DNA of 64,000 bases from a virus. Positions within the stretch are counted from its first letter, which is position 1. Every line of letters starts with the position of its first letter. The position numbers were made by a program, and so were the translations under genes. The notes under the pieces were generated by a model that saw only the letters and a program-made list of their open reading frames with translations, was not told where the DNA came from and searched no databases. The DNA lies in IMG/VR virus record IMGVR_UViG_3300025162_000043, positions 1 to 64,000 of that record; one strand, written 5' to 3'. Of this stretch, positions 34,982 through 57,545 are shown in pieces.

Positions 34982-35063
34982 GGTAGGGGGGGCGATTGGG
35001 AGGGGTGTTTTCAGGCCTGTTCAGACACACACCCCCGGGGGAGCCGGGGGGGAGTCTGGGGGA
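34982..35063. other. G-run/GC-hairpin tract at a compositional boundary
   Basis: GGGGGGG, GGG, GGGG, CCCCCGGGGGAGCCGGGGGGG, GGGGG within ~80 nt. Confidence 0.7.
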
Positions 35064-35066
35064 CTA

Positions 35067-35549
35067 TTAGGTTTTCTTAACTAAGTACCATTTAGATCGG
35101 GGAATATTGCTTTCCCGATCAATGTCTTCGTCTGGCGTCAAGTCGATTTTTCCGATAGTTCCATCTTGTGTCCCGTACGTGGACAAACAATTCCGTACCG
35201 ATTGCGGCCGGTATCTTGTCGTACCATTGGCAAACCTTACGCCGACCATGTCAATCACTTCGGTCGTGAATAGACTGACGCCGATTGCCACTGGCCGAAT
35301 TTCAGTCTTCTCAATACCTCTTGGCAATTCGGCATTGGCCATTCTAAGAATGTCCCGGACTAACTCCATGATGCCAATTACAGATGATTGCTTGCTCTTG
35401 CCAAGCTTGGCATAATGCGCTTGGAAGTGTGGCCGGACACCGGCAATGGTCAGCGTATTGTTGATCGCTTTGCAATTGTCAAGAATTTCAGAGGACATGG
35501 CTATAGCCGCCTCTTGATCCGCGTTCACTGATTCAATTTTATTTTGCAT
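35067..35549 (-). CDS. Hypothetical protein, possible C-terminal winged-HTH
   Basis: Leaderless start; LFTTEVIDMV..QSVRNCLS..SKWYLV. Confidence 0.5.
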   Translation of the reverse strand: MQNKIESVNADQEAAIAMSSEILDNCKAINNTLTIAGVRPHFQAHYAKLGKSKQSSVIGIMELVRDILRMANAELPRGIEKTEIRPVAIGVSLFTTEVIDMVGVRFANGTTRYRPQSVRNCLSTYGTQDGTIGKIDLTPDEDIDRESNIPRSKWYLVKKT

Positions 35550-35761
35550 ACTTGCCACTAAGATCGCACAACCAAGCTCAATTGTCAAAAAGTATTTGAA
35601 ACTACTTTTTGCGCCAGCGAGGGAGGGAAGAAATACTGGCCAGTAAATGATTCGGTGAAACGAGGGCAAAAAAAGAAATACTGGCCAGTAAATGGTTCGG
35701 TGAAACGAGGGCAGGAAAAGGCTCCCGGGAGCAATTCCCGGGAGCGTGAGATTAGGAATCG

Positions 35762-36136
35762 TTATGCTTCGTTGGGATCGCTAGGCCATCCCTGAATTGC
35801 ATTGGCCGGGAGCAGCCAAGTGCAATTGCCCTGCCCCGGACCGCTAACATAGGTTCGGAGCGTGCGCCCAAAGTAGGTCACGCGGTTGGCAGACCCATCT
35901 GCCGGCTTATAGCTGATGGTGCAGACCATCTTGACCTGCGCCTTGCCATCGGCAATGGCTTTGTTCAACCGGCTAACGGTCACGCTTCGGGTCTTGCCGA
36001 CCTGCACGCCAACGGCAACGGCAACCGCGTCAAGTTCCTCCGTGGACATAGACGCAATAAGGACGGATGCGGCAGCAGGCTTGCTGGTTTCAGGGGCAGC
36101 GGCAATGATGTTTTCGGCAGTATTTTCAGTATTCAT
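35762..36136 (-). CDS. Hypothetical protein
   Basis: ORF between promoter block and terminator hairpin at 35721-35745. Confidence 0.65.
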   Translation of the reverse strand: MNTENTAENIIAAAPETSKPAAASVLIASMSTEELDAVAVAVGVQVGKTRSVTVSRLNKAIADGKAQVKMVCTISYKPADGSANRVTYFGRTLRTYVSGPGQGNCTWLLPANAIQGWPSDPNEA

Positions 36137-36451
36137 TTGATTGTCTTTCCAACACAGTATTTTTCGAGACTTGGCGGGCTTACGTATCCCGCTCTCAACA
36201 TATAGACCATAACACAGGTTCTCTGTTTGTCAAAAAGTATTTGAAACTATTTTTGATCGCTATCGTCCGAGCTGAGGTTCTCCGGCATGGGGGAAGAAAT
36301 ACTGGCCAGTAAATATTCAAAGAAATACTGGCCAGTAATTCTTGCCATGCACAGTAAATGATTCGGTGAGCACAGTATTTAATTCGGTGAGATTTGGGCA
36401 GGGAAAAGGCCCCGGATGTCTGCCTCCGGGGATGAGTGATGATGCTTTCCG

Positions 36452-36709
36452 TTATTTATCAGCGTGCAACGCGATTGAACACCTGACATGGTGCAAATCG
36501 CTTTGATGGGTATATGTCGCGCCATCAATTGACCATGCATACCGGCATCCTTCGTAGCTACCATCGAAACCCCAATAGGTGCCAACTTCTATCACGGTAC
36601 AGGTTACTGCTACACTTATCAGTTTTGATCGCCGACCGTTGCCAGTCCGGTGGTGAACTAAATTTCTAAACTTCATTCCCAGAACAATGGGTGTATCATT
36701 CATGTCCAT
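36452..36709 (-). CDS. Hypothetical protein
   Basis: ORF between repeat blocks. Confidence 0.45.
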   Translation of the reverse strand: MDMNDTPIVLGMKFRNLVHHRTGNGRRSKLISVAVTCTVIEVGTYWGFDGSYEGCRYAWSIDGATYTHQSDLHHVRCSIALHADK

Positions 36710-36960
36710 ATCATACATCATCCAGGTAATTTGTCAAAAAATATTTACAACTACTTTTGATCGCCAACCCGGCTTCCCTGCCTTGACCGAAGAAATACTG
36801 GCCAGTAAATATTCTTATATCGCCTAATGTATTTAGAAATACTGGCCAGTAATTCTTGCGGAGCACAGTATTTAATTCGGTGAAATTTGGGCAGGAAAAA
36901 GCGAAGGACCGTACCATTTCTGGCACGATCCTTGCTCGTGTTGTGTTCTCGAATGGCCAA

Positions 36961-37563
36961 CTAATCGGCTAAAATGGATTCGACTTCGGCCATTTCTGGC
37001 ATTTCAACTACTACGCCAGATGCTCTTAGATAATAGACGTTTTTGAGATTGACGGCAATCACGGAGGGCTTAAAGTCTGGTTTTTCAGTTTCCTTGTAAA
37101 GCCAGGGAGCAACCACTTCATCAAACTCTGGTTCATTGGCTTCATTACAATAGGCACGTGTGGACTTATGCGGGAAGTATTGGAGATAGTATTGACCATC
37201 ACGCTTGGCTTCGTCCTTGTGTTGGACCAACGGAAGATTTTTGCCGTCTATGGTCTTAAGGTGTTCATACCATGTTTCGCCGTTCTGGTACTCAACTTGG
37301 GACAATTCGACGCCAAGCTTAGCAGCAATCCGAGTGCAAACGCTAGTATTATAGTTAGCGTTGACAATGCCAATCTTCCGGGATACCTTATACAAGCCAT
37401 TTTTGGACTTGGCAGATGCTCCCCAGGGGTTTCCTGCCTTGATCTTGACCACTGGCGTTTTGCTAAGGATAGCGACAAACCGGCAAGCTGTTCCATTGGT
37501 CTTGATAAAACCGAGCATCTCTAACACGGATACCATTTGAACCACATTTTTCTTGTCTAACAT
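36961..37563 (-). CDS. Phage hypothetical protein
   Basis: 200-aa ORF between repeat blocks. Confidence 0.7.
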   Translation of the reverse strand: MLDKKNVVQMVSVLEMLGFIKTNGTACRFVAILSKTPVVKIKAGNPWGASAKSKNGLYKVSRKIGIVNANYNTSVCTRIAAKLGVELSQVEYQNGETWYEHLKTIDGKNLPLVQHKDEAKRDGQYYLQYFPHKSTRAYCNEANEPEFDEVVAPWLYKETEKPDFKPSVIAVNLKNVYYLRASGVVVEMPEMAEVESILAD

Positions 37564-37862
37564 ATTTTTACTTTCGAGTTAACACTAGAGAGCGTGTTGC
37601 TCTCTTACACCAACACCATACCACAGGTTCTCTGTTTGTCAAAAAGTATTTGAAACTATTTTTGATCGCTATCGTCCGAGCTGAGGTTCCCCGGCATGGG
37701 GAAGAAATACTGGCCAGTAATTCTTAATTATATTATTCCACGGGTATTATATTAAGAAATGTTTACTGGCCAGTAATTCTTACGATGCACAGTAAATGAT
37801 TCGGTGAGAAGTACAAAAAAAAGGCCCGAGGTTTATACCCCGGGCGTGATCGACCAGATAAT

Positions 37863-38900: not shown

Positions 38901-39300
38901 ATTTTGATTCTTTCAATTTAATTGTTTTTTACTCTAACAATTACACACTACATCTAAACAGGAAAAAGTCAAATTGTTTTTGATTTATTTTGGATTTATT
39001 TGATGCACTAAAAAGAATTTAAGCACCGACGGCAGAGAGCGGCGGAGGCCGAAGAAATACTGGCCAGTATTTCTTATACTATATTTCAATAGTATTCCGC
39101 CCGTTATTATATTAAGAATTTGAAGAAATACTGGCCAGTAAATATTCAAAGAAATACTGGCCAGTAATTCTTACGATGCACAGTAAATGATTCGGTGAGA
39201 ATAGTATTTAATTCGGTGAGCGAAGGATGAAAAACAAAAATGCCTCTGGTTCCGACCAGAGGCACCTATACAATATGAATATAGAACCGCCAAAGAAATC

Positions 39301-40014: not shown

Positions 40015-40050
40015 ATATCGTCTCCTACATTAACACAGTCTATCCTGTTG

Positions 40051-43000
40051 TCAAATGGTTATTCCTGAAAGTTTGTTCACGATTGAATGCTCTGCACAGA
40101 CAGGGAATTCCAATCCGTTTGTTTCCCGTCCTTCTGCTTGTTCCAGGAGGTTCCGCAAGTGAGCATCATTTGACACACAAGAATAAGACAGCGTAGAATA
40201 CAATGACCCTGGCTTAGGTGGAGCGTATGGAGTCCAACCGTCCAAATAGCTTTGCATCCATTCTGGCAATTTATCACATTGATTCCAATCTTCATTGCAC
40301 TTTGTTTTGAATTCCGCATTGGCAATATCCCAGAGACGATCAAGGATTTGATCGTTTGGCATGAATTCAAACTTATTCAAGTATGCTTGTGCAAGCTCGT
40401 CTATTTGATTAGTTCGGAATAAAATTGCGGCGAAGTAATTCATTAACGGTTGTGATTCAATTTTTTGTTTCATATTGTATTAACACCTTACACCATAAGC
40501 ATATAAATGTCAAACGGAATTTTCAAATATCTTTTAGGCACCGCCGACGAAGATCATACGAAGAAATACTGGACATTATTTCTTGGTGGAACCGTGAGCA
40601 TCCTATGAACATCCTGTGAGCATCCTATGAGCATAGCAGAATAATTACTGGACATTATTTCTTGTCTGAGCACAGTAAATGATTCGGTGAGAAGTACAGA
40701 AAAAAGCCCCAGCATTGAATGCTAGGGCCACATGGATTATTTATATTGTATATTAGTATTTCATATTATTTTATTGTGTTATAGTTTAGTCATTCGTCAG
40801 AGAAGAGGCGAGAAATTCTCGTGATATTCAGCTATGCAAAAAGATGTCATATCATTCAACTTTGCATATCCTCGTTCATCAAGATCAAGGGCACCGCTGA
40901 AAAGTGATTGAAACTTGTCAAGAGCAGTTTTAAAGTCACATGGAGCAGATTCGGCTAAAACTTTGTTGGCTCCATATTCTAACCGAATTAAAGCATATCG
41001 TTTCATACTGTTGTAAACTCTATCATTGTTCCCGTATGTCATATCTATTACACCATAACATACTCCTGTAAAATGTCAAAAAGTTTCTTCAAATATCTTT
41101 TATACACCACCGACGAAGATCAGGCGAAGAAATACTGGCCAGTAATTCTATATCATAGATATACATTTACTGGATATTATTTCTTGCCAGGCACAGTAAA
41201 TGATTCGGTGAGAAGTACAAAAAAAGCCCCCAGCTTAAAGAAGCTAGGGGCTTCGCTCACTACAAACCAATCATTGGCGCATTACTTTTTCGCTAAACAG
41301 TTTTTCGGCCAATGTATATTCATCAGGAGCAAGGTCCGCGACATGCAACAACTCATCCCAATTGCGGGCTAAATCATTTTCCGAACCGAGAAAATGGTTA
41401 TATCCGCTATTACCTTTAACTTGTGCGAGAACAAAGCCATCACCTGTTACCACCAAGCTATTAACTTGCGGAGTAACCCATTCTTGCCCGAGAATATAAG
41501 CAACAATGCTACCCATCTTTGGGGTCATAAGCCTAAAGCCTTTGGGATTAAGTTTTTCCACAAGTGTAAATATTGAAGCGGGAAGATTCCAAATTTCTCG
41601 ATATTCATGCAGGACAATTTTCTGACAATCTTTGGGCAATTCAGAAAAAGGAATGCGCGTGCCAAGATAATTTTTGCGACCAATAGCAGGAGCAAATCCT
41701 GCCTTATTCACGTCAACTTGACGCTTGCTTTCACTACGTTCAAAAGTACCTTTAGAATCAAACGGATTCTCCGACATGTAAATCCATAGGAATCCAGTAG
41801 GACCAGTTTTCGTACAACACTGCCGATTCGGGATTGAACGATATTTGCCCGAGTAAATAACAACATATCGCTCATCAGAACCTAAACAACAATTGTCATA
41901 AACTCGAATGTATCTTGGAATGCCTTTAGGCATTAGTGACCAAACTCTATTTGCAGTTTTTTTATTCATAGTAATACCTTACACCTATTTATATTTTTGT
42001 CAACCGATTAGTTAAAGAATCTTGCGCTAGTAACTAGCTGCCGAACAAGACATTTGGCATCCCGTCTGCTACTTGCCCGAACAAAGACCTGAACTGGTTC
42101 AAATTCAGACCAAGCACAATACATGTTGGTTTCTGGAGTGTATCCCCAATACGCCCCGCTTTTATCATAATCTAAATCAATCCATTTAAGTTTTTCCATG
42201 TGCAATTTAATAGGGGCATTAACATCTTGAGGCAAACGAGTTAACCTGCCCATACTTGCGCCGAACATATTACATGCTTTAGGAAGAATTAGTTTCATAT
42301 TATTACCTTAGCATAGTTATTGAAATTGTCAAATATTATCTACAATCTTTTTTATATTGTTTACGCCATTCTACCGGGGAAAGTGTCTGAGTGGTATGTG
42401 GGCGAAATTCTAATTCACCATCTTCCCGCGAGCCAATATAACCATGTTCTGTTTTAGTGGTTGCGGGAATACTGAAATAAGTGTCGGGGATAGTTGCTTT
42501 GCATCTTACTAGTTTACCAGTAACGGAATGAAAAACGATTGCTTGACGAGTGAACATGCCATAATCCCGACATTGTTCCTCAGATCCAATTGAAGTTATA
42601 TTCATGCTTCACACTATACCATAAAATACAAATGTCAAAAACTTTCGTCAAATATCTTTTGGACACCGCCAGCCATACGAAGAAATACTGGCCAGTATTT
42701 CTTTATCATAATATAAGAAATACTGGACATTATTTATTGCCAGACACAGTAAATGATTCGGTGAGAAGTACAAAAAAAAGCCCCCGGGAGTGAGAATCCC
42801 GGGGTATAGCGCCTGGCCAGCGTTATTTAATGGTTAGATGCTGAAATATATTGTGGCATAAGAGGCCTAAGCATTTACAGTTTATTCTGCTGTTCTATCG
42901 GCTACTCTCTATTAGAACCATTCGATGCCACGAAATGTTATTTGCTATCAGTTATTTCGTATTTTTCAATGTCCAATGTTTCAATGTTTACTTCGTCATA

Positions 43001-43659: not shown

Positions 43660-43907
43660 TACCAATACATTAGCACACAAAAGGAATTTGTCAAAAAGTT
43701 TCTTCAAATATCTTTTAGGCACCGCCAGCCATACGAAGAAATACTGGCCATTAATTCTGCGTTATGAGAGAAGAATTACTGGACATTATTTCTTGGGATG
43801 ACTCGGTGAAACGCAGTATTTGATTCGGTGAAGTTGAGTAAATGATTCGGTGATAAAAACTTTGAAAAAGAATTTGACATCTTCATTTCGTGTGTTATGG
43901 TATAAGT

Positions 43908-46277
43908 ATGATAAATAAAAATCTTTGTGGTAAAATGAGAACGAAAGACAATCCTTATGAAGTCTGGCAATCCCTTGATGGGAGTTGGACATGGAAAGTT
44001 TTGAAAAAGTATCAAACTCCCGATAAAGAAATGAGCAATTCATTCGCTCGGTGGTTCTGTTATGTGACATCTCCCTTCTGTCCGTTCGGTGAAATGGGAG
44101 ATACTTACATTAATGAAATTAAAAGTCAAGCCGTCAAAATCTTCATTTGACAATTCGGTGAAACGTGCTAGGTTAAATATATGAACGCTAAACAATTCCG
44201 AATCGTAAAACTTGCCGTAGTGGTAAGAGAAAAAGATGCTGAATCAATTGCCGACCAACTGTGCAATATTTCATGCGACTTTGGCATCTATACTATGAGT
44301 GCCACGGAGAGCATTCCTACTCATGCAGAATGGAAAGAGATATTAGAGAACGTGCCTGAAGAAATACTCGGTGAAACAGATGAACAACAACGGCGGGATG
44401 AAAAGCATGGGCTTTATGGTGATAAACAAGATATTAGTAATTAACAATTAAACAAAACAAAATAAAATGAACGCAAAAACAGCAACGAAACTAAATGAAT
44501 TGCAAAATGCAGCAATTCCATTGGCCCTGGTAATCAATAGCCGGACACTTTGCATCCTCACTGGCAAAGTACATAAGTCAACAGCCAAGGCAATAACTGC
44601 CGCATTGACTAGAGTGCTTCCCGCAACAATTGCCAATCGGATTATCTATGGCGCAAAGCATCGGGAATTTGTAGCGTTGCCCGAAGTCGTTGAAATGTCG
44701 TGCCCTATGTTTTACTGGCTAACTTCTGAAGATACATACAAATTGGCACTGCCAGAGATTACTGCCATAATCAATCAACAGAATACGGAAACCCTCAATG
44801 CCTATGAAACATACAGACTGGCGTGTGAACAGGGAGTAGCCGTACCCCCTGAGAAATAACTATCAACTACAACCCCAGGGCTAAAACCCTTGGGGTTTCC
44901 CTCCTTCAAAATATGAAACAAGTAACTTGTAAATCTGGATTAAAAGGATGGCAGGGCCATTTGCGAGAGAATTATGCATCCTTCAATGAGTTTGAATATT
45001 TCTCGGAGCAAAATGGACTTCATGCCAGGCTTGGGTATAAAACCGCTTTAGCGGCTTGGCACAATAATCCAAAAATTCAAGGCTCGGTGAATCCCAGTGA
45101 TTATCGGAGGGTTCGGTGAAAACAATATACTTTCAATTAACTCTCAATGTTGCATTTGACCCGAATGGAACTACTCCTGCTGAATTGAAAGCAAATCTAT
45201 TACAAGTTATTAAGGATGCCACAAGTAACGGCACACTGACAGGAGAGACCCCCGCAACCGTGAAGCAGTATGCTGTTTCGGTGAATCAACTTAAAAAATG
45301 ATGTTATGTCATATTTTGCCCATCTTAAAGCGAACTGGAAAGTTGCCGTGAAATGTTTGGCTTTATCCACCTTTCATTTTATTCATGGTATTGTTCCTTG
45401 CAAATATACCGAGCATGAATATTATGGGTTTAATTTCAAAAAAGATAGTTGACATTCTTCCCCCGAACTGTTATTCTTAGTGGCATGAAAAACAAATGGA
45501 TATTAAGAAATAGAATGTCAACACAGGAATTTGATAGTTTCCCCTATGCTTTCCGTAATATGTTCGCTATTGTGAAAAAGAGTGCAGAGACAGGAAAGCT
45601 AGAGGAAACAATTAAAAGCATAAGAATCATTAGTCCTCAAAAAGATAGTTATGGAGACCCACGAAAATATAACTATACTGCCGCGTGTGAAATGGCTAAA
45701 GCAAGCGGACTTCTGAGTTCTGATGATCAAATCAATTCAAAGGAATTCAAACGAAAATGAAACAAATCACTTAACGTGAACTAAAATTTTATCCATTGCC
45801 CCGCTTATGCGGGGTTTTTTATTGCCCACCGAATATAAGAAATACTGGCCAGTAAATTTTATTTCAAACGCACTTGACATTTTCCGAAAATGTGGTTTAT
45901 TCGTGCTATGACAAAAATTGAAGCCATAGCATATCTTCGCAAGAAAGTACTTTTGGAAAAGAAAGCTGCACTCAAAGAACAATTCAATGTTGCTCGGCGG
46001 GAAACCGAAGAAACAATGAGAGAACTTGAAGAAATAGAGAAAAAGAATTTGACAAATCAAGAAGATGATATAAAATAATAATATGACTAACAAAAAAAGA
46101 AATTCATTGCCGACGGTGAAACAATCCATTGCTCACATTGAAGCTACAGACTATAAGTTAATGCACCGCAAACGAGGATTGTATATCTTTCGCAGTGAGA
46201 CCCGTCCATTACATGCCAGAGAATTAGCATTCACCATGCGAGAATTGCGGGATGCTCACCGAGGAATTGGATTTTAA
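43908..46277 (+). CDS. Plus-strand series of small hypothetical genes (43908-44150, 44181-44444, 44467-44859, 44913-45119, 45116-45301, 45485-45760, 45908-46078, 46083-46277)
   Basis: ORF track; several leaderless promoters; terminator at 45798-45822. Confidence 0.65.
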
Positions 46278-48576
46278 GACACAATTTCGTAAGCATCTTT
46301 CGGCAATCCATAATAAGTATCCCCGTCATAGGTTTCAAAGAAAACAGGATTCAACGTCTCTACGTTGAGTTCCTGCCATTTTCGTAAGGTAATATCCCAT
46401 GTCTCATCCAATTTCGGTTTGTACACCTCAACCAATATATCTCTGAGAATTCTTATTTTAGTCATATTGATATATACTGGCCAGTAAATGTTTACGTATC
46501 CATTTTCGGTGAGTAAACAAAAAAAGACCCCATCACTTGATGGAGTCTTCGGCAATAAAAAGAAACTATTTAGAAATTGGACGAGTAAGTATGATTATAC
46601 GAAAGACTGTTTCGCCCTCAAGGAGTAATTCCTGATTATCATTGATAAGTTGTACAATCTTTTTACCTTCAATCAAATCACCCTTTTTAATCATCTTGTT
46701 CTCATCGTATGTCATTTCTACACTGGGCACCCAAATTTGAGTTAGTTTCATATTTTTCCTTTCGTTGCGGAAACCCCGATGGCTTTAGCCTCGGGGAGGA
46801 GCAACGAAATATAATTAATAATTTCTGTTGACATTCTTCTTAATTCCTGTTATACATATCACAGTTCTTTGATACATGGTTTGGATAGTAGAAAATAATT
46901 GCTTCTATCCAGTAAAATCAATCAAGCATCGTTTTGTGAATAGACCAGAAGGCACTCCGCTTGCGGAGGAACCGTTATGTAGGGTCTTTGACTCACAATC
47001 AACATCCTCCTCATTATCCGTTAAGGATAAACTGGAAGGCAGGCCACGGTCAATTGGCCAACCGTCTGTAAATCTTTCTTGAATTATGTTAAGCATAAGC
47101 ATTAGAGTCTGGCAAGCCCCGACCCTTCAGGGTCGCGGGTAGTTGACATTTTTACACCCTTACCCACCAATTGTAATGCATCATCGCTTTCAATGGCGAT
47201 CAATGTCCAATCGCATATATCCCCGCCAGTATCACTAAGACCATCAAGATCCCGCAATCGGAAATACTCCATGTCAAAACAAGGATGCTCCATTGCAATT
47301 CTACGAATGGATTTTAATGCTTTTATCATCTCAGCTTCGGCAGATAGATTTGTCATAATTCAGTATATTCCACCGAGACAGAGGAAGGAGTAGCTAAATA
47401 TGGAGAAGCACAATATTTCTTCTTAGCTTTCTTCTCAGCCGCATTGTGAGAGCCAGCTTTGATATATCCCCTCTCAAGCCCATTTACATAAACAATAAAG
47501 GTTTTCATATTATTTTTAATCGCCGCTGTCAATTTTGATATATGCCTCTGCAAGATAGATATAACGACATCCTTCTACCTTAGTGAATGCCCCAAGACTA
47601 CAGCCAGCATTCCCCTTTGGTAACATTTTGGCAATCTCACTTCTCCATTGCAAGGAAGTACGAGACGAAACATTGTCATAAGTGGTATCATCTGGATTGC
47701 CTTTAACATATACCAAGTAATTGAAATGGTCATAAGACCGACCAAGCGGTTTACTTCCATTCTCAACGATTGCTATGTGAATAGACTCAAGGTTAATTGT
47801 CATATTGTTATTTAATCTACAAATTCATGATCGGCAAATACTTTTTCAATAGGTTTCAGCTCTGCCTTTGCTTTTGGTTCTGGACTTTTTGTGGCGAACA
47901 ATCCTACTCTCCATCCTAATTTTAACAATGCCTTATCAAGTGCATCGTCATAATCATATGCTTCCACTTCAAAAGAATTGTTATTGTCTTTATAGTTATA
48001 TACAGTAAATGTTCTCATATCTATACAATACACCGCTTGCCTAAATTGTCAAATTCTTTTTCTGATTATTTTTATCGTTCGGGCCAACCATTGAGGATGA
48101 CAGCCACAATCATAATAAGGATAGCCACAACGAGGACAACATTCCCCACAAATTCTTATGTGAGTCATAAATGAGTCAGTTACTTTATCTCCTTCGGGAA
48201 ACATAGATATACGTCTCCATCGGTATTTCTAACAATAAAAGAATTGTCATTGGGAAGATATACAATTTCAGAAATAGTAATAACATCACCCGTACTAATT
48301 GTAATTTCATCTCCTGGCTTCAGATTCTTTCTCCAATCTTTACAATTGTCTGAAACCGTTGAATTCTTAGCTGTCTTTATTTTCATATTGTTGACTCAAC
48401 GCCTGATATATTTTTCGGGTATATTCCGCTAAATTCATAAATTGTTCTTCCGTATAAGCCATAGACTTCTCTTCTATTTCTCTTTGTTTATTCTCCGCAA
48501 TCATAGCCTGCATCTGACATTCAGAATAAAATAAAAGTTCTGCTATGGCCATCTCGGTTGTATTGTCTATAATCAT
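46274..48576 (-). CDS. Series of small hypothetical genes (46274-46465, 46566-46751, 47102-47356, 47353-47508, 47516-47803, 47812-48018, 48180-48386, 48367-48576)
   Basis: ORF track; duplicated 45-nt promoter at ~48015 and ~48573. Confidence 0.55.
46752..47147 (+). mobile_element. Second copy of the 396-nt promoter+omegaRNA cassette
   Basis: Near-identical to 8396-8791; after TTCAT; ends GTAGTTGAC. Confidence 0.88.
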
Positions 48577-48670
48577 ATCTATACAATACACCGCTTGCCT
48601 AAATTGTCAAATTCTTTCTCCGATTATTTTCTATTTGACATTCTCAATAGGTGTGCTATATTTATCGTAT

Positions 48671-49407
48671 ATGGCAAAAATAGATTCAAATAATACGTTC
48701 GGTGATTTTTCAAAACGAATTAACCTGTCTTCAGATAGACATAACCTTAAACCTATAGCACCATCACTAACCTTTGAAAAATACCTTATACAATCTATTA
48801 AAGAAGGTAACGCTATACTTGAAGCCGAAAAGAATTCGGTGAATACACCGCCTAAACCTGACTCGGTGAAGTTACCTACCAACCCCTGCACTGAAGTAAG
48901 TAAAAATGCCTACACAAGAGCAAGAATTGAAATCCTGGCAAAGTTAACCCCAATAGCCCGAGGTGTTATTGAAAAAATGGAACGAAATGAATTGGAAAAA
49001 GATAATCGTTACGATAGATTCTGCCAAGCTATCGCCATACTCGGAGATAAATTAAGTGAACAAAAATAGTTATGTTATACATTGACCCATCAAAATTACT
49101 CAGTCGTAAATTCTACGTCCATGACTCAAAAATCATTTATACTGCAATCGGATATGGCCAAAATGAAACCGCATTCATTGTAGGAGAATACCCAGACCCA
49201 GGCTATTTAGCCAAATATAACCGTCTCGTAACCCATAAACTAACCGATTGCAAATTCACTGACTTTGTGCCATCAGCAGTATCTTCACCTTCACCACCAC
49301 CGCCAATTCCACCTTCATGGGATACAGATTCAATTGCACCACCACCGTATCCACCACCACCAATTCCACCTTCATGGGATACAGATTCAATTGCAACTGT
49401 TCCATAG
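48671..49407 (+). CDS. Two hypothetical genes (48671-49069; 49072-49407 with a duplicated Pro-rich tail)
   Basis: TTGACA promoter; PPPIPPSWDTDSIA occurs twice. Confidence 0.6.
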
Positions 49408-49596
49408 CTTTCATTGCAATTGCAACAAACCTAACCCCTTGACCGTTCAAGGGGTTTTTTAATGCCATTGGCTATAAGAAATACTGGCCAGTAAATCTAT
49501 TCTAACTATATGATTCATATCAAGACAGGAAAAAACGGCAGGAACCCCCTGCCGCCAATATGACTAACACCACACCTTAAGGCTTCCAAAATTTAT

Positions 49597-49629
49597 GTTT
49601 CAATCCGCATCCCTTGCGGGATGATATAC
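49597..49629 (-). CRISPR. Solitary CRISPR-repeat-like unit (type I-C-like), not an array
   Basis: GTATATCATCCCGCAAGGGATGCGGATTGAAAC: hairpin plus GGATTGAAAC end. Confidence 0.55.
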
Positions 49630-49635
49630 CGCATC

Positions 49636-50139: not shown

Positions 50140-50143
50140 AAAA

Positions 50144-51127: not shown

Positions 51128-51352
51128 GCCTATATAATAACACAACATTGAAATTTGTCAAATGAAAATAAAAAATATAAAAAGTTGCCGACAGGATTAT
51201 TTGTGTTATAGTTATCCAACATTGACGAAATGAAGTTTTGGTTCATAGTTATTGATTGACACGAAAGCACTACCAATAAAATAATTTCTCAGTTAAGCCC
51301 CCCGGAATTTTGGGTAGTGCCTTCTTCCGAGGGGCATTTTATTTAAGGCACT

Positions 51353-51838: not shown

Positions 51839-51841
51839 TCT

Positions 51842-52057
51842 ATGAACTTAATGAATCCTATTGAAATTCAATTAAAACGAAAAGCCAAACGACTTGGGTA
51901 TAGATTGAGACGTATTCCAACAAATGATCCGTGGTATCTTTCAATTGGTCCCTATTACATGGTTAATCGATCTTCCAATAGGGTATATTACAAACGGCTT
52001 GGCTTACACGAAGTATTTGGAATCCTAACCACCATTCAACCTCCCAATAAAAAATAA
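51842..52057 (+). CDS. Hypothetical basic protein
   Basis: ORF track. Confidence 0.5.
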   Translation: MNLMNPIEIQLKRKAKRLGYRLRRIPTNDPWYLSIGPYYMVNRSSNRVYYKRLGLHEVFGILTTIQPPNKK

Positions 52058-52735
52058 ACAAATACTGGCCAGTAATTCTTATACTATATTTCAATAGTAT
52101 TCCGTCCGTTATTATATTAAGAATTTGAAGAAATACTGGACATTAAATATTAATAAATACTGGCCAGTATTTCTCAATATTGGCAGTAAATGATTCGGTG
52201 AAACGGAGTATTTCATTCGGTGAGTACAAAGAAAAACGACGAATGAAATAATTGCATACGTTCTCACGTGCATAAGTGCTTAAGCAACTACTTACATTCG
52301 CCGTTTTAATGAGAGTATGGAGAAAGTTAGCTATCCTTTTATCCATACTCTCTTTCACCGTTACATTAGACAAGAGGGTTTATTTAACCTCTGTTATATT
52401 CTCTTATTTATCAGGGCGAGGGCTTCCACTGAAAACCAGTCTAATTCAACGGGATTTGATTCCCATTCTACTGAGATTCCTCTGTTACTTGTGACTGTGA
52501 CTTAACTTGACTTGTGACCGCACTTGTGAAGGTCACAGTAGAATGTTATCCTTACTGAATAGAATCAAAATTAGATGTTACGGGGGTTTGTGTTTACTGG
52601 ACTCACCTTATCCCGTTTTTGTGGTAGTTGTCCTATTCCTACCCATTAACTAACATCCAAATTCAAAGATCAATCTGCAAAAACACCAACTTTCCGAGTC
52701 ATTTTCAGTTGGTTGACTCATCAACTAGTCATCCG

Positions 52736-53564: not shown

Positions 53565-54396
53565 TAACCTTGCGAAATATGGAATCATAATTGGCTCGCA
53601 TGGTATCAATTTTCGGAGTAATCTTTACAGCGGGCACACTGACAGTTTTATTTTTAGACTTAGCATAATGACCAAAATAATCAGACTTGTAACCACCTTT
53701 GCCAGACTTAATAATCTTATACCATGCTTTCCCTGCCTCCGAATTTTTAGGCTGTTGGCCATGAATCACAATAGCAAAGTCTTTATCACCCTTCCAACAC
53801 AAACAATCATCATGATCAATCTCAAGATTCAATTTCTCCGCCTCATCCTCCGAAAATACAACCCTCACCGAACGCAACCCCAGTGCATCAATCAATATAT
53901 CATGCGTACCACCACGAGAAGCAACTAACTTCATATTGAAAGGAATTGAATTAAGCCGCTTGGCCCAATACGGCAATGCCTTAGTATAACCATATACTAC
54001 AAATTCAGAATGTTGTTCAGCAAATAATACCCAAGCATCAAAATATGCCTGACTAAAGAAATCACCACTGGAATGCATCCGAACTAACTTGATATTCTCC
54101 TTTCCAAACAAAGAGGATTCAATTAGATTTGCCATTCCGATTGTTGTTTTTGCCTCTTTAATCAATTCAAAATTCCGCCAGCGGGATTTTCTCACGTTCG
54201 GAAAAAGACATTCTGCCCCAGTAGCATAACAACGGAATTTGCAATCCTTCCCATCTTCAATCTTCCCAGTAACTTTATTCACATGACTCCTACAATCCTT
54301 GGCAAAAGGACAACTATATCCCGCAGGCAAAGAAAGAATCGCGGTATCTCTTTCTAACTTAGCATTCCCCAATCCAAAAGTTAATTTGTTAATCAT
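53554..54396 (-). CDS. Gene product 88-like protein (Cys-rich, radical-SAM-related)
   Basis: GNAKL, LPAGYSCPFA..C...CYA, VRMHSSGDF, YGYTK. Confidence 0.75.
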   Translation of the reverse strand: MINKLTFGLGNAKLERDTAILSLPAGYSCPFAKDCRSHVNKVTGKIEDGKDCKFRCYATGAECLFPNVRKSRWRNFELIKEAKTTIGMANLIESSLFGKENIKLVRMHSSGDFFSQAYFDAWVLFAEQHSEFVVYGYTKALPYWAKRLNSIPFNMKLVASRGGTHDILIDALGLRSVRVVFSEDEAEKLNLEIDHDDCLCWKGDKDFAIVIHGQQPKNSEAGKAWYKIIKSGKGGYKSDYFGHYAKSKNKTVSVPAVKITPKIDTMRANYDSIFRKVTYA

Positions 54397-54510
54397 ATTA
54401 TACCCCAACACACAATCGATAATTGTCAAATTCTTTTTATATAAATAATGCTCTCGTCACTGCTATCCTATGAAAAATACAATAACGAGAGCATTCACAA
54501 TCCCACGTTC

Positions 54511-55215
54511 TTAAATGTTTACCAGATTAGTCTCAAGCACAGGAATAGCTTCAGGAGTAGCTTCGGCTTGATTAGTCTCAAACGCAGCAGCAGCCTCAGG
54601 AGCAACTTCAACTTGAACAAGAGTAACTTCAGCAACAATGGCAGGAGTAACGACAGAAACCACTTCAGGCGTAATTGTCACAGCAGGAATGGTCAATGAG
54701 GGGATAATTTCAGGAGTAGCAAGAATAGCATGAATTGCATCAAGCTTATCAGCGGTTGGTGTCTGGCTCTTGCTAATAGGTGTTTTCTCCTTAGCAACCT
54801 TAGTAACCGCAGTAACCGCAGTATCCTTCCCCGCACGAAGACTAAACAGTAAAGCCCTACGGCCAAGCCCCTTCTTGGAATTAGGCTCCGCTGTTATACC
54901 CCGTATGGCAATGATAATACTACGCGGATTTGCCTGCGTTCTATTCGCAGCAATAATACGCTCCCCCTTCTTGTGAAAATACATGTCCCGCTCTATTGCC
55001 TTGCGAAGTGTAAGCATAGAACATAATGGACCTTTCCCAAATGTCTTGCTCTCCGAATCAGTATCAATATCGTTCGCTATCATCCAATCCGTAAATGTCC
55101 ACTCCTTAGACTTGGGAAACTTCGGCGAATACTTTGGACGACCAGGACGATCATATTGCTTCTCAATAATTGCTTTCTTCGCGGCATTTACTTTGTTTTT
55201 ACTATTCTTCTTCAT
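54511..55215 (-). CDS. Basic DNA-binding-like protein with acidic low-complexity tail
   Basis: RPGRPK AT-hook-like motif, EWTFTD, GLGRRALLFS. Confidence 0.5.
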   Translation of the reverse strand: MKKNSKNKVNAAKKAIIEKQYDRPGRPKYSPKFPKSKEWTFTDWMIANDIDTDSESKTFGKGPLCSMLTLRKAIERDMYFHKKGERIIAANRTQANPRSIIIAIRGITAEPNSKKGLGRRALLFSLRAGKDTAVTAVTKVAKEKTPISKSQTPTADKLDAIHAILATPEIIPSLTIPAVTITPEVVSVVTPAIVAEVTLVQVEVAPEAAAAFETNQAEATPEAIPVLETNLVNI

Positions 55216-55328
55216 AACTATTTTTTCTTTCTATCTATTTTTGTTTTTGGCTTAACTATTTTTTTCTTAACTATGTCAATACGTTACTACATGTATATGC
55301 ATCTGTCAAATTCTTTTTTATATTTCTT

Positions 55329-55890
55329 TCACCACTTACAATTCGCAGTTATATACAACGGCGCAATAAATCCTAATGGAGTAAGAATGTTCTCCAAATC
55401 ATCGTAAGTATAATCTACATTCCTTTTCGCCACATCAACGGCAGCATCAACTATTCGGATTGCTTCGTCTGTCTTCATTCCTTGGGGAATAATAAAATGT
55501 AAATCATACTCCCTATCAGAATCTTTGTCTTGTACTGTAATCAATCTCATATTATTTTTCATATTTTGTTTACCAGTGTTAACTTGTTTTCTCTCTTTTG
55601 TATGGTGAAATTGGTATAAAATGCCAAAACAAGTTAACGCTCTCTCAATCAAATTGACTCATTCCCCGTATAGCATCGGGTTGTACCATAGTAAACGGGC
55701 AATATGGCTCTACCCTGCCACAATCTTCCCCCGATCTCCACCACTTAATGTCATAATAAGAAAGAGGTTCTCCCTTCTCATCTTCGTAAGTTACTTCATC
55801 CCCCGCAATAAATTCCTGAGACAAAAGAAATTCTTTCTCAGTGTCAAATGTTTGAACTACAAATCCAATTGTTATTTTTTTAATAATCAT
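55329..55890 (-). CDS. Two hypothetical genes (55329-55562, 55645-55890)
   Basis: ORF track. Confidence 0.55.
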
Positions 55891-56664
55891 ATATGCACTT
55901 TCGCATGTCTTTCGTAATTGTCAAATTCTTTCTCTCTATTTTTCTTTTTCTTTTCTCAACCCCCACCAAAAAACAAATACTGGCCAGTAATTGTTTGAAG
56001 AAATACTGGATAGTATTTGTTTTTTATGCCAGTAAATAAGCATACTTATGTTCGGTGAGAATAGACACATTTATATACGTATATATATGTGTAAAGAATA
56101 TTTACACTTTGTAATGCAAAGTGATTTGCAGCGCAAAGTATATATACCAGTAAATAGTATAGATAACGCTCGGTGAAATTGGGTAAATATATGCTGTTTT
56201 GCTAAGGAATATGCATATTTATCACTCGGTGAGATTGAAATGTATTTATATACGTATTGCTTTCTATTGGAATATATGTGTATGTATTCTTTATATTTCA
56301 TTCAAATTGCTCTGTATCACAGAGTAAATTACAAGAAATATAAAAACTGAGAATTTAACAAGTGAATACGTATTCAAAAATGAATTATAATATATCTATA
56401 CGTTGCATTAGAATTACTGGATAGTAATTATTTCATAAACATTAGAGTTACTGGATAGTATTTGTTTACGCATACCAGTAAATAAGCATACTTTAATTCG
56501 GTGACATTTGCATGGATAGGCGAAAGGAAACTGGAATATGGATATATGCACGTCTATACACCAGTAATAAGCATACTTTAATTCGGTGACATTTGCATGG
56601 ATACAACGTATATTTTACGATGATATCTGGGATATGTATTGGCAAAAAGAAGTAAGGAATAATT

Positions 56665-57123
56665 ATGATTGAAATACAGAAATCTAAAACTGCCGACACT
56701 CGGACTTGTGATTATGTCAATACTAGCAAGTCAACACTTTTGGCATCAAGCCGCCAGCACATTGGGGACATTGCGAAGGCATTGGCGTTCTTCAGCGGCA
56801 AGATGACTGAGGCCGCAGCAGAGCACGACTACGACAAGCTGACAGCAATCGACGGGTTTCATGCCGACTTTGTGACTGGGTTCAAGCAGACTGGATGGTG
56901 GGACAACCACCGAAAGGTCCATCGTCATCATCTTTCCGCTCCTGACGGCGTGCCAGAGAACGTGAACCTGTTGGACGTGTTGGAATACATTTCAGACTGC
57001 GTGATGGCTGGAATGGGACGCAGTGGAAGCGTTTACGAACTAAAGGTTCAAGACGAGTTACTACAGCGTGCTTTCCGAAATACGGTTGAACTTCTGAAGG
57101 CTGAGATTGTGGTAAAGGAATAA
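56665..57123 (+). CDS. HD-superfamily / DUF5662-like protein
   Basis: HIGDI, EHDYDK, HRKVHRHH, LLDVLEYISDC; AAGGA RBS. Confidence 0.6.
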   Translation: MIEIQKSKTADTRTCDYVNTSKSTLLASSRQHIGDIAKALAFFSGKMTEAAAEHDYDKLTAIDGFHADFVTGFKQTGWWDNHRKVHRHHLSAPDGVPENVNLLDVLEYISDCVMAGMGRSGSVYELKVQDELLQRAFRNTVELLKAEIVVKE

Positions 57124-57269
57124 ATAATATAAAGTAATTATTTCATACACCAGTAATTAGTATTAAGAACGTTCGGTGACATGGATAGAAAGCAGGCACC
57201 GATGGATTAGAATATGGATATATGCATACCTGTATATCAGCACATTAGTATATTCAATGTTCGGTGGGA

Positions 57270-57545
57270 TCAGAGGGTAAGGTACCATTTATTATTTGCG
57301 GTATTGATTTCGGAGATTAGGCTATGGTAAGCATGTTCCAGAGTTAATTTACAATGACCAGTTATTTTTAAACTAGGGGACCATTGGGCGGAGAGAATAT
57401 ATCCACATTTCCCCTCATATTTTCCATAGGAGAGGATAAGGGTATTGAAGGGGAATGTTTCCATGACAGAGTTACCGTTGGGGTTTATTCCGTTATATTT
57501 TAAGGTACTACCTTTTAGTTGCAGTTCTATTTCTTCGTATGTCAT
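57270..57545 (-). CDS. Hypothetical protein
   Basis: ORF track. Confidence 0.5.
   Translation of the reverse strand: MTYEEIELQLKGSTLKYNGINPNGNSVMETFPFNTLILSYGKYEGKCGYILSAQWSPSLKITGHCKLTLEHAYHSLISEINTANNKWYLTL

What the first reader, a model, noticed from the sequence alone, without database searches (positions are those of the whole stretch)
35000..57300. 22-kb domain marked by ~30 operator-like palindromes and bounded by two skew switches: candidate terminal-repeat/first-entry control system
Seen: intergenic blocks with a fixed order. On the minus strand they read terminator, TCACCGAATCATTTACTGTG, 1-3 copies of AAGAAATACTGGCCAGTAATTCTT (variants TACTGGACATTA, TACTGGATAGTA), TTGACA promoter, small gene. 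They begin abruptly at 35628, fade by ~57270, and I saw no palindrome copies outside. Established: T5 and SPO1 carry pre-early host-takeover genes with strong sigma70 promoters in long terminal repeats, and T5 has repeat-rich injection-stop signals. Inference: this block is a similar domain, coated by one sequence-specific protein recognising the CAGTAWWT half-site. I do not recognise this motif from any described system.
Basis: partly seen in the sequence, partly recalled or inferred. Interest (0 to 1): 0.85.

Follow-up and report, generated by a model that had tools for sequence, protein, structure and literature searches.

The report
Phage operator arrays with their winged-helix regulator
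A 21-kb block of small phage genes carries the same composite DNA signal at almost every gene boundary, and comparison with related uncultured freshwater phages points to a small winged-helix protein encoded at the edge of the block as its reader, so this looks like a regulatory operator network rather than a terminal repeat.

Summary
There are 29 palindrome sites (core TACTGGCCAGTA), all at 35628-56466 and none elsewhere in the 78-kb record. There are 26 same-strand copies of TCACCGAA, against 2 inverted. The order is fixed: terminator, octamer, half-site, 1-3 palindromes, sigma70-type promoter.

The terminal-repeat and first-entry reading is not supported. The block is single-copy and internal, and the record's end repeats are unrelated 4,836-bp inverted repeats. 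Contig depth is not consistently 2x, and a complete 354-kb relative has no long repeat.

The operator reading is supported and extended. The right arm CCAGTA is invariant while the left arm degenerates without compensation, so this is a directional DNA site and not an RNA hairpin.

At least five related viral contigs and about 20 metagenome loci keep an invariant polar TCACCGA. It is followed at fixed spacing by a half-site specific to each lineage. ORF 35067-35549(-) models as a winged helix. Its helix-3 sequence changes together with the half-site, and the half-site recurs inside that gene's own promoter.

Best reading: an autoregulated winged-helix regulator with about 40 sites that insulate or repress an accessory-gene regulon. 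It works like mycobacteriophage stoperators but belongs to no described family. Binding and its effect are inferred, not shown.

Other first-stage notes of this scan had already recorded the polar octamer on this same genome.

The parts
35067..35549 (-). Gene of the candidate regulator: 160 aa (P0014), with an N-terminal long helix and a C-terminal winged-helix domain. It is the last gene of the block in the direction of transcription.
   Evidence: AF2 model with pLDDT 78. All top 50 structural matches are winged-helix DNA-binding domains, Z 7.2-8.8. No Pfam or PHROG family. Orthologues occur in all relatives that carry the octamer. Helix 3 co-varies with the half-site.
35549..35560 (.). Degenerate palindrome (10 of 12) lying on the start codon and predicted transcription start of the regulator gene. 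Candidate autoregulatory operator.
   Evidence: In relatives the equivalent half-site sits in the spacer of this gene's promoter.
35578..35745 (-). Module 1: terminator 35721-35745; two fused octamer+palindrome units (35673-35703, 35628-35658); -35 TTGACA at 35578-35583.
36206..36431 (-). Module 2: terminator 36410-36431; octamers 36383-36390 and 36362-36369; palindromes 36320-36343 and 36294-36317; promoter 36206-36233.
36710..36933 (-). Module 3: terminator 36904-36933; octamer 36876-36883; palindromes 36834-36857 and 36790-36813; promoter 36710-36737.
37615..37845 (-). Module 4: terminator 37824-37845; octamer 37800-37807; palindromes 37758-37781 and 37702-37725; promoter 37615-37642.
38945..39267 (-). 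Module 5, upstream of the DUF932 gene: terminator 39238-39267; octamers 39212-39219 and 39191-39198; palindromes 39149-39172, 39123-39146 and 39052-39075; promoter 38945-38972.
   Evidence: The orthologous upstream regions in G001 and G002 keep half-sites and a palindrome, and G001 also keeps the octamers in the compared stretch.
40485..40729 (-). Module 6: terminator 40705-40729; octamer 40683-40690; variant palindromes 40640-40663 and 40561-40584; promoter 40485-40513.
41052..41254 (-). Module 7: terminator 41223-41254; octamer 41204-41211; palindromes 41162-41185 (weak) and 41127-41150; promoter 41052-41079.
42611..42804 (-). Module 8: terminator 42782-42804; octamer 42757-42764; palindromes 42715-42738 and 42680-42703; promoter 42611-42638.
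43667..43853 (-). Module 9, at a divergent junction: octamers 43846-43853 and 43824-43831; palindromes 43771-43794 and 43736-43759; promoter 43667-43694. The opposite promoter is at 43874-43901(+).
44085..45284 (-). Four octamers (44085, 44154, 45112, 45277) inside a plus-strand gene island. They keep the same DNA strand as the rest. One lies in the spacer of the plus-strand promoter 44147-44174.
45798..45860 (.). Solitary palindrome 45837-45860 beside terminator 45798-45815, with no promoter.
46469..46550 (-). Module without a consensus promoter: terminator 46523-46550; octamer 46505-46512; palindrome 46469-46492.
48698..48842 (-). Two octamers inside the plus-strand gene 48671-49069. Its orthologues in G001 and G002 also contain the octamer.
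49476..49556 (-). Terminator 49534-49556 followed by palindrome 49476-49499, with no octamer, at a convergent junction.
52057..52223 (-). Module: octamers 52216-52223 and 52194-52201; palindromes 52152-52175, 52128-52151 and 52057-52080. In one lake data set a contig continues after 52077 with a further palindrome variant.
   Evidence: table 7 (X3).
55972..56058 (-). Module: octamer 56051-56058; palindromes 55998-56021 and 55972-55995; -35 TTGACA at about 55914-55919.
56409..56589 (-). Last, weakest module: octamers 56582-56589 and 56497-56504; variant palindromes 56443-56466 and 56409-56432.
57172..57179 (-). Last octamer of the block.

Best explanation
The block 35.5-57.2 kb is a regulon of individually transcribed, mostly small accessory genes in an uncultured freshwater phage. 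Nearly every boundary between transcription units carries a composite cis element on the DNA:
1. An intrinsic terminator.
2. 11-21 nt later, an invariant, strand-polar TCACCGA(A).
3. 6-7 nt after that, a half-site (W)WTACTG.
4. One to three inverted-repeat sites built from two such half-sites. The arm nearer the promoter is kept strictly.
5. 50-90 bp further on, a strong sigma70-type promoter.

Dimers would sit on the palindromes. One subunit would sit on the octamer-plus-half-site unit, with the variable helix 3 on the half-site and a conserved part of the protein (or a second, conserved factor) on TCACCGA. The gene controls itself through a site on its own promoter.

Bound protein most likely acts as an orientation-dependent block or insulator behind each terminator, and as a repressor of the module promoters. 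Expression of the whole block would then be shut down or held together once the protein accumulates.

Shown: the sites, their order, polarity and confinement; their conservation in relatives; the winged-helix fold of the model; and the co-variation between protein and site. Inferred: actual binding, stoichiometry, which factor reads TCACCGA, and whether the effect is repression, insulation or activation.
For: Confinement and enrichment:
- 29 of 29 sites lie in 35628-56466, with 0-1 expected.
- The octamer is 26:2 by strand inside the block.

DNA site rather than RNA hairpin:
- The right arm CCAGTA is invariant in 29 of 29 sites.
- There are 67 left-arm against 23 right-arm deviations, and only 4 are compensated.
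- The modules lie between a terminator and the next promoter.

Fixed geometry:
- Terminator to octamer is 11-21 nt.
- Octamer to TACT is 6 nt in 15 of 39 copies, and 6-7 nt in 12 or more other lineages.

Conservation:
- G001 is colinear with the window over 6-55 kb at 40-70% protein identity. It has 18:0 octamers and 8 palindrome variants in the syntenic block.
- G002, G003, G005 and G006 carry polar TCACCGA clusters at 22:2, 16:5, 27:6 and 33:2, although the giant neighbouring protein is only about 33% identical in G005 and G006.

Regulator:
- ORF 35067-35549 has orthologues in all five relatives. It is preceded by octamer units in G000, G001, G002, G005 and G006 and in most of the metagenome loci that reach far enough upstream. 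In G003 the octamers are not adjacent.
- The model has pLDDT 78, and the 50 best structural matches are all winged-helix DNA binders (histone H5, Fur, MecI, PadR, MarR, forkhead), Z 7.2-8.8.

Co-variation:
- Helix-3 class RY[KR]xQ[SA]V[KR]NxLSTYG goes with xTACTG.
- RYPLKTVKQYLGV goes with TAAGTCTAG.
- RYPIETIWQYLGV goes with TAACTCTAC.
- RYP[YL][NH]TI..YLS[IV]FM goes with ATAAATACT.
- RYPDATILSYLAH goes with TAATTACAGG.
- In each class the same half-site reappears in the spacer of the regulator gene's own promoter.
- A 7-mer of a lineage's own half-site is found in its own promoter window in 12 of 20 lineages. For a different lineage of the same class the figure is 82 of 184, and across classes it is 16 of 196.
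- One lineage has a symmetric double change, TACTAGCTAGTA.
Against: - No binding, expression or phenotype data exist. No RNA data set holds this DNA.
- The proximal palindrome centre lies at -88 to -126 from the predicted start, with no helical phasing. Direct contact with polymerase at the promoter is therefore unlikely, and repression would need looping, spreading or a roadblock.
- The structural Z scores (7-9) are in the range the tool calls middling. The argument rests on the uniformity of the matches.
- The lineages used for co-variation are related, so they are not independent trials.
- The invariant octamer could be read by a host factor or by another conserved protein. Two others are conserved in all relatives: 45515-45760(+) and 54511-55215(-).
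- In G003 a helix 3 resembling G006's goes with CCAGTAT-containing sites, which blurs a simple code.
- Octamers inside coding regions all read TTCGGTGA on the sense strand (and my frame check), which the model does not explain.
Confidence: 0.6

Rival explanations
1. The modules are primarily recombination substrates that let gene cassettes be gained, lost and shuffled. They would work like T4-type promoter-early stem-loop elements or integron attC sites, and any protein binding would serve recombination rather than transcription.
For: - Modules bracket one to three small orphan genes each.
- The module families are near-identical over 90-250 bp. The promoter halves at 36233 and 37642 match, as do those at 40513, 41079, 42638 and 43694.
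- The 39.2-43.9 kb segment, with five modules and about 11 genes, has no counterpart in colinear G001.
- A lake variant has a different palindrome complement at 52077, and one contig joins 37621 back to 36213 through the repeat.
- The octamer keeps its DNA strand when genes are inverted, as attC sites do.
Against: - No integrase or recombinase family appears among the Pfam or PHROG hits listed for the 122 ORFs. Only the top 25 families of each scan were visible.
- Every cassette has its own promoter, unlike integron cassettes.
- The half-site recurs inside the regulator's own promoter and co-varies with a winged-helix protein. This points to transcription control.
- Homologous recombination between any repeated modules would give the same cassette turnover as a by-product.
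Confidence: 0.15
2. The polar octamer-plus-half-site units are replication elements: iteron-like initiator sites or polar fork barriers. The winged-helix protein would bind them as a monomer and bind the palindromes as a dimer for autoregulation, as in RepE-type initiators or RTP/Ter.
For: - Asymmetric sites are almost all on one DNA strand, even in plus-strand gene islands.
- The asymmetric unit and an inverted repeat at the protein's own promoter share a half-site. This is the RepE pattern, where the dimer binds inverted repeats at its own gene and the initiator binds iterons (PMC13028717).
- RTP is among the Foldseek matches (rank 11, E 0.12).
- GC skew flattens across 35-47 kb.
Against: - The sites are spread over 21 kb at gene boundaries rather than clustered at one origin.
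- Their position is tied to terminators (11-21 nt) and promoters.
- The protein has one winged-helix domain, not two.
- No DnaA boxes or AT-rich unwinding element were sought or seen.
Confidence: 0.1
3. The elements act as RNA: nut- or put-like antitermination signals (a linear box plus hairpins), processing sites, or stabilising hairpins on read-through transcripts.
For: - A linear conserved box followed by one to three stable inverted repeats resembles boxA plus boxB.
- The elements lie just behind terminators, where read-through RNA would carry them.
Against: - There is no compensatory change: 4 of 90 deviations.
- The palindrome is perfect through its centre, which a hairpin loop does not need.
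- The strong terminators upstream should leave the modules mostly untranscribed.
- Single half-sites recur in promoter spacers, where no hairpin is possible.
Confidence: 0.06
4. One reading: the block is a long terminal repeat or first-entry (pre-early) segment like those of T5 or SPO1, and the repeats control DNA entry.
For: - The block has dense strong sigma70-type promoters, small orphan genes and many repeats.
- In two of three data sets the block contigs are about 1.2-1.6x deeper than the left-flank contig.
Against: - The block is a single internal copy with unique conserved flanks in G000 and G001.
- The record's end repeats are different sequences.
- The complete relative G003 has no repeat longer than 500 bp.
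- The depth ratio is 0.8-1.3x in the third data set, and nowhere 2x.
- The same promoter type occurs outside the block.
Confidence: 0.04
5. The palindromes are cruciform or hairpin promoters for a virion RNA polymerase, as in N4, possibly the neighbouring 4,242-aa protein.
For: - A giant ORF of unknown function lies next to the block in all close relatives.
- The palindromes are oriented and lie upstream of genes.
Against: - The giant protein matches no polymerase family or solved structure by sequence.
- G003 has the module system but no homologue of the giant protein.
- Up to three palindromes per module and palindromes without a downstream gene do not fit.
Confidence: 0.03

Closest known systems
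Stoperators of cluster A mycobacteriophages (L5 gp71, TipsytheTRex repressor)
   Same: - More than twenty copies of a short asymmetric site lie in short intergenic spaces across many kilobases.
- Orientation is strongly biased.
- The same site is used as an operator at a promoter.
- A small phage protein is proposed to read an asymmetric sequence with two contact surfaces.
- Specificity differs between related phages (PMC9283540; PMC6550527 by title and abstract).
   Different: - The protein here is an unrelated winged-helix family with no Pfam or PHROG match.
- The sites are composite: an invariant anchor plus a variable half-site. They are accompanied by true inverted repeats.
- They lie behind terminators and 90-130 bp upstream of promoters, not inside operons.
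- They are confined to one 21-kb block.
- Their polarity follows the DNA strand even in inverted gene islands.
- No integrase or other sign of lysogeny was found.
Conserved inverted repeats bound by the phiC31 repressor, and dispersed C1 operators of phage P1 (from my own knowledge; no paper was retrieved)
   Same: One phage regulator has more than a dozen operators scattered through the early region, many in intergenic spaces near terminators and promoters.
   Different: Those are repressors of temperate phages with known families. There is no invariant polar anchor element. The comparison is recalled from memory, not tested here.
Iteron-type initiators (RepE, RepA, pi)
   Same: A winged-helix protein uses one half-site in two contexts: asymmetric repeats, and an inverted repeat at its own promoter for autorepression (PMC13028717).
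   Different: - Rep proteins have two winged-helix domains and about 250-350 aa.
- Iterons are clustered at one origin.
- Here the sites are spread over gene boundaries and the protein has one domain.
T5 and SPO1 pre-early or host-takeover regions in long terminal repeats
   Same: A dense set of strong host-type promoters drives small genes of unknown function.
   Different: This block is not repeated and not terminal in any assembly examined. Those systems have no known palindrome-plus-anchor modules.
T4-type promoter-early stem-loop elements and integron attC sites
   Same: Repeated intergenic modules delimit exchangeable small-gene cassettes, and cassette content differs between relatives.
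   Different: No recombinase was found. The modules contain a site that co-varies with a DNA-binding protein. The cassettes have their own promoters.

Membership tests
Long terminal repeat or pre-early domain (T5/SPO1 type) | The segment is present at both genome ends (direct repeat). | tested here: not met
   One internal copy. The record's ends are a different 4,836-bp inverted repeat. The complete relative G003 has no repeat longer than 500 bp.
Long terminal repeat or pre-early domain (T5/SPO1 type) | About 2x read depth with sharp edges and read-start pile-ups. | tested here: inconclusive
   Only contigs were available. Per-contig depth of the block relative to the left flank is 0.8-1.6x in three studies, and contigs bridge 35.0 kb. 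Raw reads were not available.
Long terminal repeat or pre-early domain (T5/SPO1 type) | A cluster of strong sigma70-type promoters with small early genes. | tested here: met
   The same promoters also occur outside the block.
Stoperator-type repressor system (cluster A mycobacteriophages) | More than 20 asymmetric sites in short intergenic spaces, with biased orientation. | tested here: met
   26 octamers on one strand against 2. 29 directional palindromes.
Stoperator-type repressor system (cluster A mycobacteriophages) | The repressor is homologous to the L5 gp71 family (HTH plus C-terminal domain). | tested here: inconclusive
   No Pfam or PHROG family for ORF 35067-35549. A profile search of PDB sequences gives nothing relevant. 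The fold is winged helix and no gp71-type repressor is among the top matches. An unlisted family is not excluded, so homology is neither shown nor ruled out.
Stoperator-type repressor system (cluster A mycobacteriophages) | Temperate life style (integrase, immunity). | tested here: inconclusive
   No integrase among the listed families, but the record is probably a fragment.
Stoperator-type repressor system (cluster A mycobacteriophages) | Sites stop transcription elongation in an orientation-dependent way. | not testable with these tools
   This needs in vitro transcription or reporter assays.
Winged-helix DNA-binding proteins (fold level) | H1-b1-H2-H3-b2-wing-b3 topology that superposes on solved winged-helix domains. 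| tested here: met
   Model residues about 57-160. The top 50 chains are all winged helix, Z 7.2-8.8, rmsd 1.4-3.4 A over 64-94 residues. Foldseek gives the same theme at weak E values.
Iteron-type Rep initiators | Two tandem winged-helix domains, with iterons clustered at an origin. | tested here: not met
   One winged-helix domain. Sites are dispersed over 21 kb.
Integron gene cassettes | An IntI-type tyrosine recombinase beside the array, and promoterless cassettes ending in attC. | tested here: not met
   No recombinase family is listed. The cassettes carry their own promoters.

The most novel reading that the evidence does not exclude
A whole clade of uncultured, probably huge, freshwater phages uses a two-part operator code read by one small winged-helix protein. 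One part is an invariant polar 'anchor' (TCACCGA). The other is an exchangeable 'key' half-site 6-7 nt away that has diversified into at least five specificity classes together with helix 3. Placed behind every terminator of a 20-kb accessory-gene block, the bound protein would act as an orientation-dependent insulator and shut-off switch. It would also define immunity-like incompatibility groups among co-infecting relatives.
Probability: 0.3. Interest if true: 0.75.

Novelty: new variant of a known kind. Interest (0 to 1): 0.62.

Why it matters
If the reading holds, it provides four things:
1. A named cis code and a named regulator for a large, otherwise entirely dark gene block in a clade of uncultured lake phages.
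2. A natural series of matched protein and site variants, in at least five classes. This is a ready-made system for studying how winged-helix specificity evolves, and a source of orthogonal repressor and operator pairs.
3. A second, unrelated example of the 'many dispersed, oriented sites' strategy known so far mainly from mycobacteriophage stoperators. This suggests the strategy is a general solution for silencing or insulating mosaic gene cassettes.
4. A sequence tag (polar TCACCGA clusters) that recognises fragments of this phage clade in metagenomes.

Tried and rejected
The contigs of the giant-protein homologues P0003-P0013 could therefore not be fetched that way.
The homodimer test of the winged-helix protein was not run.

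Searches that found nothing useful:
- No near or protein-level match in 50,697 phage records for the block, the giant protein or the DUF932 protein.
- An exact 19-mer of the palindrome was not found in IMG/VR.
- Three single hits of the 20-mer box in bacterial genomes are at chance level.
- No RNA holder was listed for this DNA.
- An earlier-findings look-up by sequence found nothing.
- The Atlas gave no lead for protein 54511-55215.
- The phiC31 inverted-repeat literature was not retrievable.

Candidate binders examined and dropped:
- The AF2 model of protein 54511-55215 is poor (pLDDT 53), so no fold search was made. Its conserved GPGRP and GLGRR motifs remain only a hint of DNA binding.
- ORF 49636-50139 was dropped because only its C-terminal zinc ribbon is conserved in relatives.
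- ORF 51353-51838 has weak HTH_36 and Crp-like hits (E about 0.1) but no orthologue in relatives.

Ideas rejected:
- A class-I activator geometry, because palindrome-to-start distances are unphased.
- A relation between the palindrome and the CRISPR repeat of relative G004, because there is no significant match.
- A regulator paralogue in the record. Only module artefacts and a weak helix-3-like remnant at 52143-52373 turned up.

Full report
WHAT THE RECORD IS

The window is the first 64 kb of a 78,054-bp virus record. The record has perfect 4,836-bp inverted repeats at its two ends. About 122 ORFs were scanned, and neither Pfam nor PHROGs lists a capsid, portal, terminase, tail or DNA polymerase family.

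The largest ORF, 17105-29833(-), encodes 4,242 aa. It has no family, no phage-database match and no PDB match, but it has metagenomic homologues.

The DNA is found in lake and freshwater metagenomes of five studies. Relatives with the same gene order include contigs of 60-131 kb and one complete 353,772-bp phage. The record is therefore probably a fragment of a large phage genome that assembled between two copies of an inverted repeat. I could not prove this.

TACTGGCCAGTA with up to 2 mismatches occurs 30 times, against 1.6 expected. There are 19 exact copies, and none lie in the unread 64-78 kb. A symmetrised 24-bp matrix gives 29 sites, all at 35628-56466. Shuffled sequence gives 0-1.

The 20-mer box occurs 13 times, against 0.01 expected. 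Its core TCACCGAA occurs 26 times on the minus strand at 35651-57179 and only twice inverted inside the block.

- A strong intrinsic terminator. Terminator-like sites number 39 against 16 expected in 35-55 kb.
- The octamer 11-21 nt later, for nine of the ten strongest terminators.
- A half-site TACT exactly 6 nt after TCACCGA in 15 of 39 copies.
- One to three palindromes.
- A GC-rich spacer and an A/T-rich stretch.
- TTGACA-N16/17-TAnnnT, often with TG before the -10.

Three palindromes lie beside terminators with no promoter (45837, 46469, 49476). The skew boundaries are only partly as described.

NATURE OF THE SITE

The palindrome is directional. The arm nearer the promoter (CCAGTA, usually CCAGTATTTCTT) is invariant in 29 of 29 sites. 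The other arm carries 67 deviations against 23, and only 4 of the 90 deviations are mirrored.

A hairpin maintained for pairing would show compensation and would not need to be palindromic through its centre. Together with the position between a terminator and the next promoter, this argues for recognition of double-stranded DNA.

The centre of the proximal palindrome lies at -88 to -126 from the predicted start, in steps that do not follow the helical repeat. This holds here and in relative G001. A simple activator contact is therefore unlikely.

RELATIVES

G001 is a 59.8-kb IMG/VR contig. It is colinear with the window from 6 to 55 kb at 40-70% protein identity.
- In the syntenic block it has 18 octamers on one strand and none on the other, plus eight palindromes of the form TACTGNCCAGTA or TACTGGNCAGTA.
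- Upstream of the shared DUF932 gene, G000 and G001 both keep the octamers, half-sites and a palindrome. In G002 the compared stretch shows the half-sites and a palindrome. The sequence between these elements has diverged in all three.
- The segment 39.2-43.9 kb of the window, with five modules and about 11 genes, has no counterpart in G001. Cassette content therefore turns over at the modules.

G005 and G006 share the giant protein at only about 33% identity. They still carry 27:6 and 33:2 polar TCACCGA copies in the block next to that gene. Their second element is different: ATAAATACTT-type in G005 and TAATTACAGGACT-type in G006.

The complete 354-kb phage G003 lacks the giant gene. It keeps a syntenic block with TCACCG variants and CCAGTAT elements upstream of its promoters.

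So the anchor is invariant across the clade, and the second element is specific to each lineage.

THE LIKELY READER

Of the block's genes, three are conserved in all five relatives:
- 35067-35549(-)
- 45515-45760(+)
- 54511-55215(-)

The first is the last gene of the block and is itself preceded by two fused octamer+palindrome units. It has no Pfam or PHROG family.

With 22 homologues the AF2 model reaches pLDDT 78. It has a long N-terminal helix and a C-terminal domain. The 50 best matches of that domain in an all-against-representatives structural search are all winged-helix DNA-binding domains (linker histone, Fur, MecI/BlaI, PadR, MarR, forkhead, viral F-93 and Stf76), with Z 7.2-8.8. Foldseek shows the same theme weakly.

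A scan of metagenome contigs gave 21 loci. Where enough upstream DNA is present, the gene is preceded by one to four copies of TCACCGA followed 6-7 nt later by a half-site. The last copy is usually extended to a full inverted repeat. The same half-site lies again directly after the -35 hexamer, or in the spacer, of the gene's own promoter.

The half-site changes with the sequence of helix 3, the recognition helix of the fold:
- Class RY[KR]xQ[SA]V[KR]NxLSTYG (13 lineages including the window) goes with xTACTG.
- RYPLKTVKQYLGV goes with TAAGTCTAG.
- RYPIETIWQYLGV goes with TAACTCTAC.
- RYP[YL][NH]TI..YLS[IV]FM goes with ATAAATACT.
- RYPDATILSYLAH goes with TAATTACAGG.

In a crude test, a 7-mer from a lineage's own anchor-adjacent site occurs in its own promoter window in 12 of 20 lineages. 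It occurs in promoters of other lineages of the same class in 82 of 184 pairs, and in promoters of other classes in 16 of 196 pairs. One lineage shows a symmetric double change in the palindrome (TACTAGCTAGTA).

In the window, a degenerate palindrome (35549-35560) lies on the gene's start.

These lineages are related, so this is suggestive co-variation and not a proof. It is still the pattern expected if this protein reads the half-site and regulates itself. The conserved wing (KPRxKWY) and the HY motif are candidates for reading the invariant anchor. That is speculation. A host factor or one of the other two conserved proteins could do it instead.

MECHANISM

I favour the following model at about 0.6 for 'operator network read by this protein', and lower for the details. 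The protein accumulates from its own autoregulated promoter. It binds as dimers to the palindromes and with one subunit to the anchor+half-site units behind each terminator. There it blocks read-through in an orientation-dependent way and, through multimer contacts, damps the module promoters. The accessory-gene block would then be insulated unit by unit and shut off together.

This works like the stoperator system of cluster A mycobacteriophages. That system has more than twenty asymmetric 13-mers in short intergenic spaces, with orientation correlated with transcription, read by a monomer with two DNA-binding parts (PMC9283540). It also resembles the use of one half-site in asymmetric repeats and in an autoregulatory inverted repeat by RepE-type initiators (PMC13028717).

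It is not a member of either family. The protein is unrelated, the site is composite, and the block is confined. The polarity follows the DNA strand even in plus-strand gene islands.

The rivals are set out in the Rival explanations section with their evidence: recombination modules, replication elements, RNA signals, a terminal repeat, and hairpin promoters.

THE TERMINAL-REPEAT IDEA

- The block is single-copy and internal in the record and in G001.
- The record's end repeats are other sequences and are inverted.
- G003 has no repeat longer than 500 bp.
- Logan contigs of three studies run across 35.0 kb. Contig depths of block pieces relative to the left-flank contig are about 1.4x (X1), 0.8-1.3x (X2) and 1.2-1.6x (X3), not 2x. 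Per-contig depth is a poor measure, and raw reads were not available.

I rate this reading at about 0.04.

LIMITS

- There is no experiment and no transcriptome, and the host is unknown.
- My gene calls are home-made and misplace some starts of leaderless genes.

Noticed in passing
window 1-4836 and record 73219-78054 (locus L006 13219-18054): The two ends of the 78,054-bp record are perfect 4,836-bp inverted repeats carrying eight ORFs, including NAPRTase and a NUMOD3 endonuclease. No capsid, portal, terminase or polymerase family is detected anywhere in the record. It may be a fragment of a much larger phage genome bounded by an inverted duplication rather than a complete genome with terminal repeats.
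   Followed up: partly
whole record, e.g. window 41976-42003, 42305-42332, 43482-43509, 48025-48052, 52937-52964: 31 of 50 consensus TTGACA-N16-18-TAnnnT promoters have an ATG starting 4-9 nt after the -10 hexamer, 18 of them at exactly 6 nt. The figure is 12% at random positions. Most genes here appear to be expressed as leaderless mRNAs, which hints at the kind of host.
   Followed up: partly
window 17105-29833 (-): A 4,242-aa ORF has no Pfam, PHROG, PDB-sequence or phage-database match. Homologues of 2,500-3,800 aa (32-58% identity) occur in metagenome contigs of up to 236 kb. It lies next to the operator block in G000, G001, G005 and G006 but is absent from the 354-kb relative G003.
   Followed up: partly
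locus L010 1848-2830 and 8631-19260 (IMG/VR contig of 368,758 bp; same sequence in L011): A relative carries a CRISPR-like array of 14 repeats of about 36 nt. It also has nine solitary copies of the same repeat in intergenic positions of the block homologous to this one, several directly downstream of promoter-like sequences. Dispersed single repeats seem to take the place that the palindrome modules have here.
   Followed up: no
window 60652-62358 (-), repeats at 61298-62085: About 60 tandem 12-bp units (consensus close to CTAACTTGTGAA on the plus strand) lie inside a 568-aa ORF that has a DUF6745 C-terminal domain. This makes a tetrapeptide-repeat protein.
   Followed up: no
window 32644-33837 (-) and 46752-47147: A TnpB gene sits just outside the block and has a 72% identical copy in the 354-kb relative G003. 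The gene-less mini-element at 46.75-47.15 kb shows 2-3x the summed contig depth, many variant letters and many loose ends in all four lake data sets. It is multi-copy or mobile in these communities.
   Followed up: partly
window 52143-52373 (-): A 76-aa ORF overlapping a module contains SSCLSTYAREN, which resembles helix 3 of the winged-helix regulator. Several orthologues hit it weakly (E 0.5-4). It may be a decayed paralogue.
   Followed up: no
locus L009 15318-19708 (G003 about 21.3-25.7 kb): In the 354-kb relative, seven or more promoters of the homologous block share TTGACAAATAGATTTAAATCTATATTCT. This places a 12-bp palindrome AGATTTAAATCT exactly in the spacer between -35 and -10. It is a second, different operator-like family.
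   Followed up: no
window 34000-37000: GC content rises to 47-48%, against about 38% elsewhere. The rise lies over the regulator gene and its conserved neighbours at the downstream edge of the block.
   Followed up: no
window 43867-58470: A second promoter family carries the upstream motif AAAGAATTTGACA. It has ten copies, eight on the minus strand at 48.0-58.5 kb. Most have no palindrome module, which suggests a differently regulated class inside and just beyond the block.
   Followed up: no
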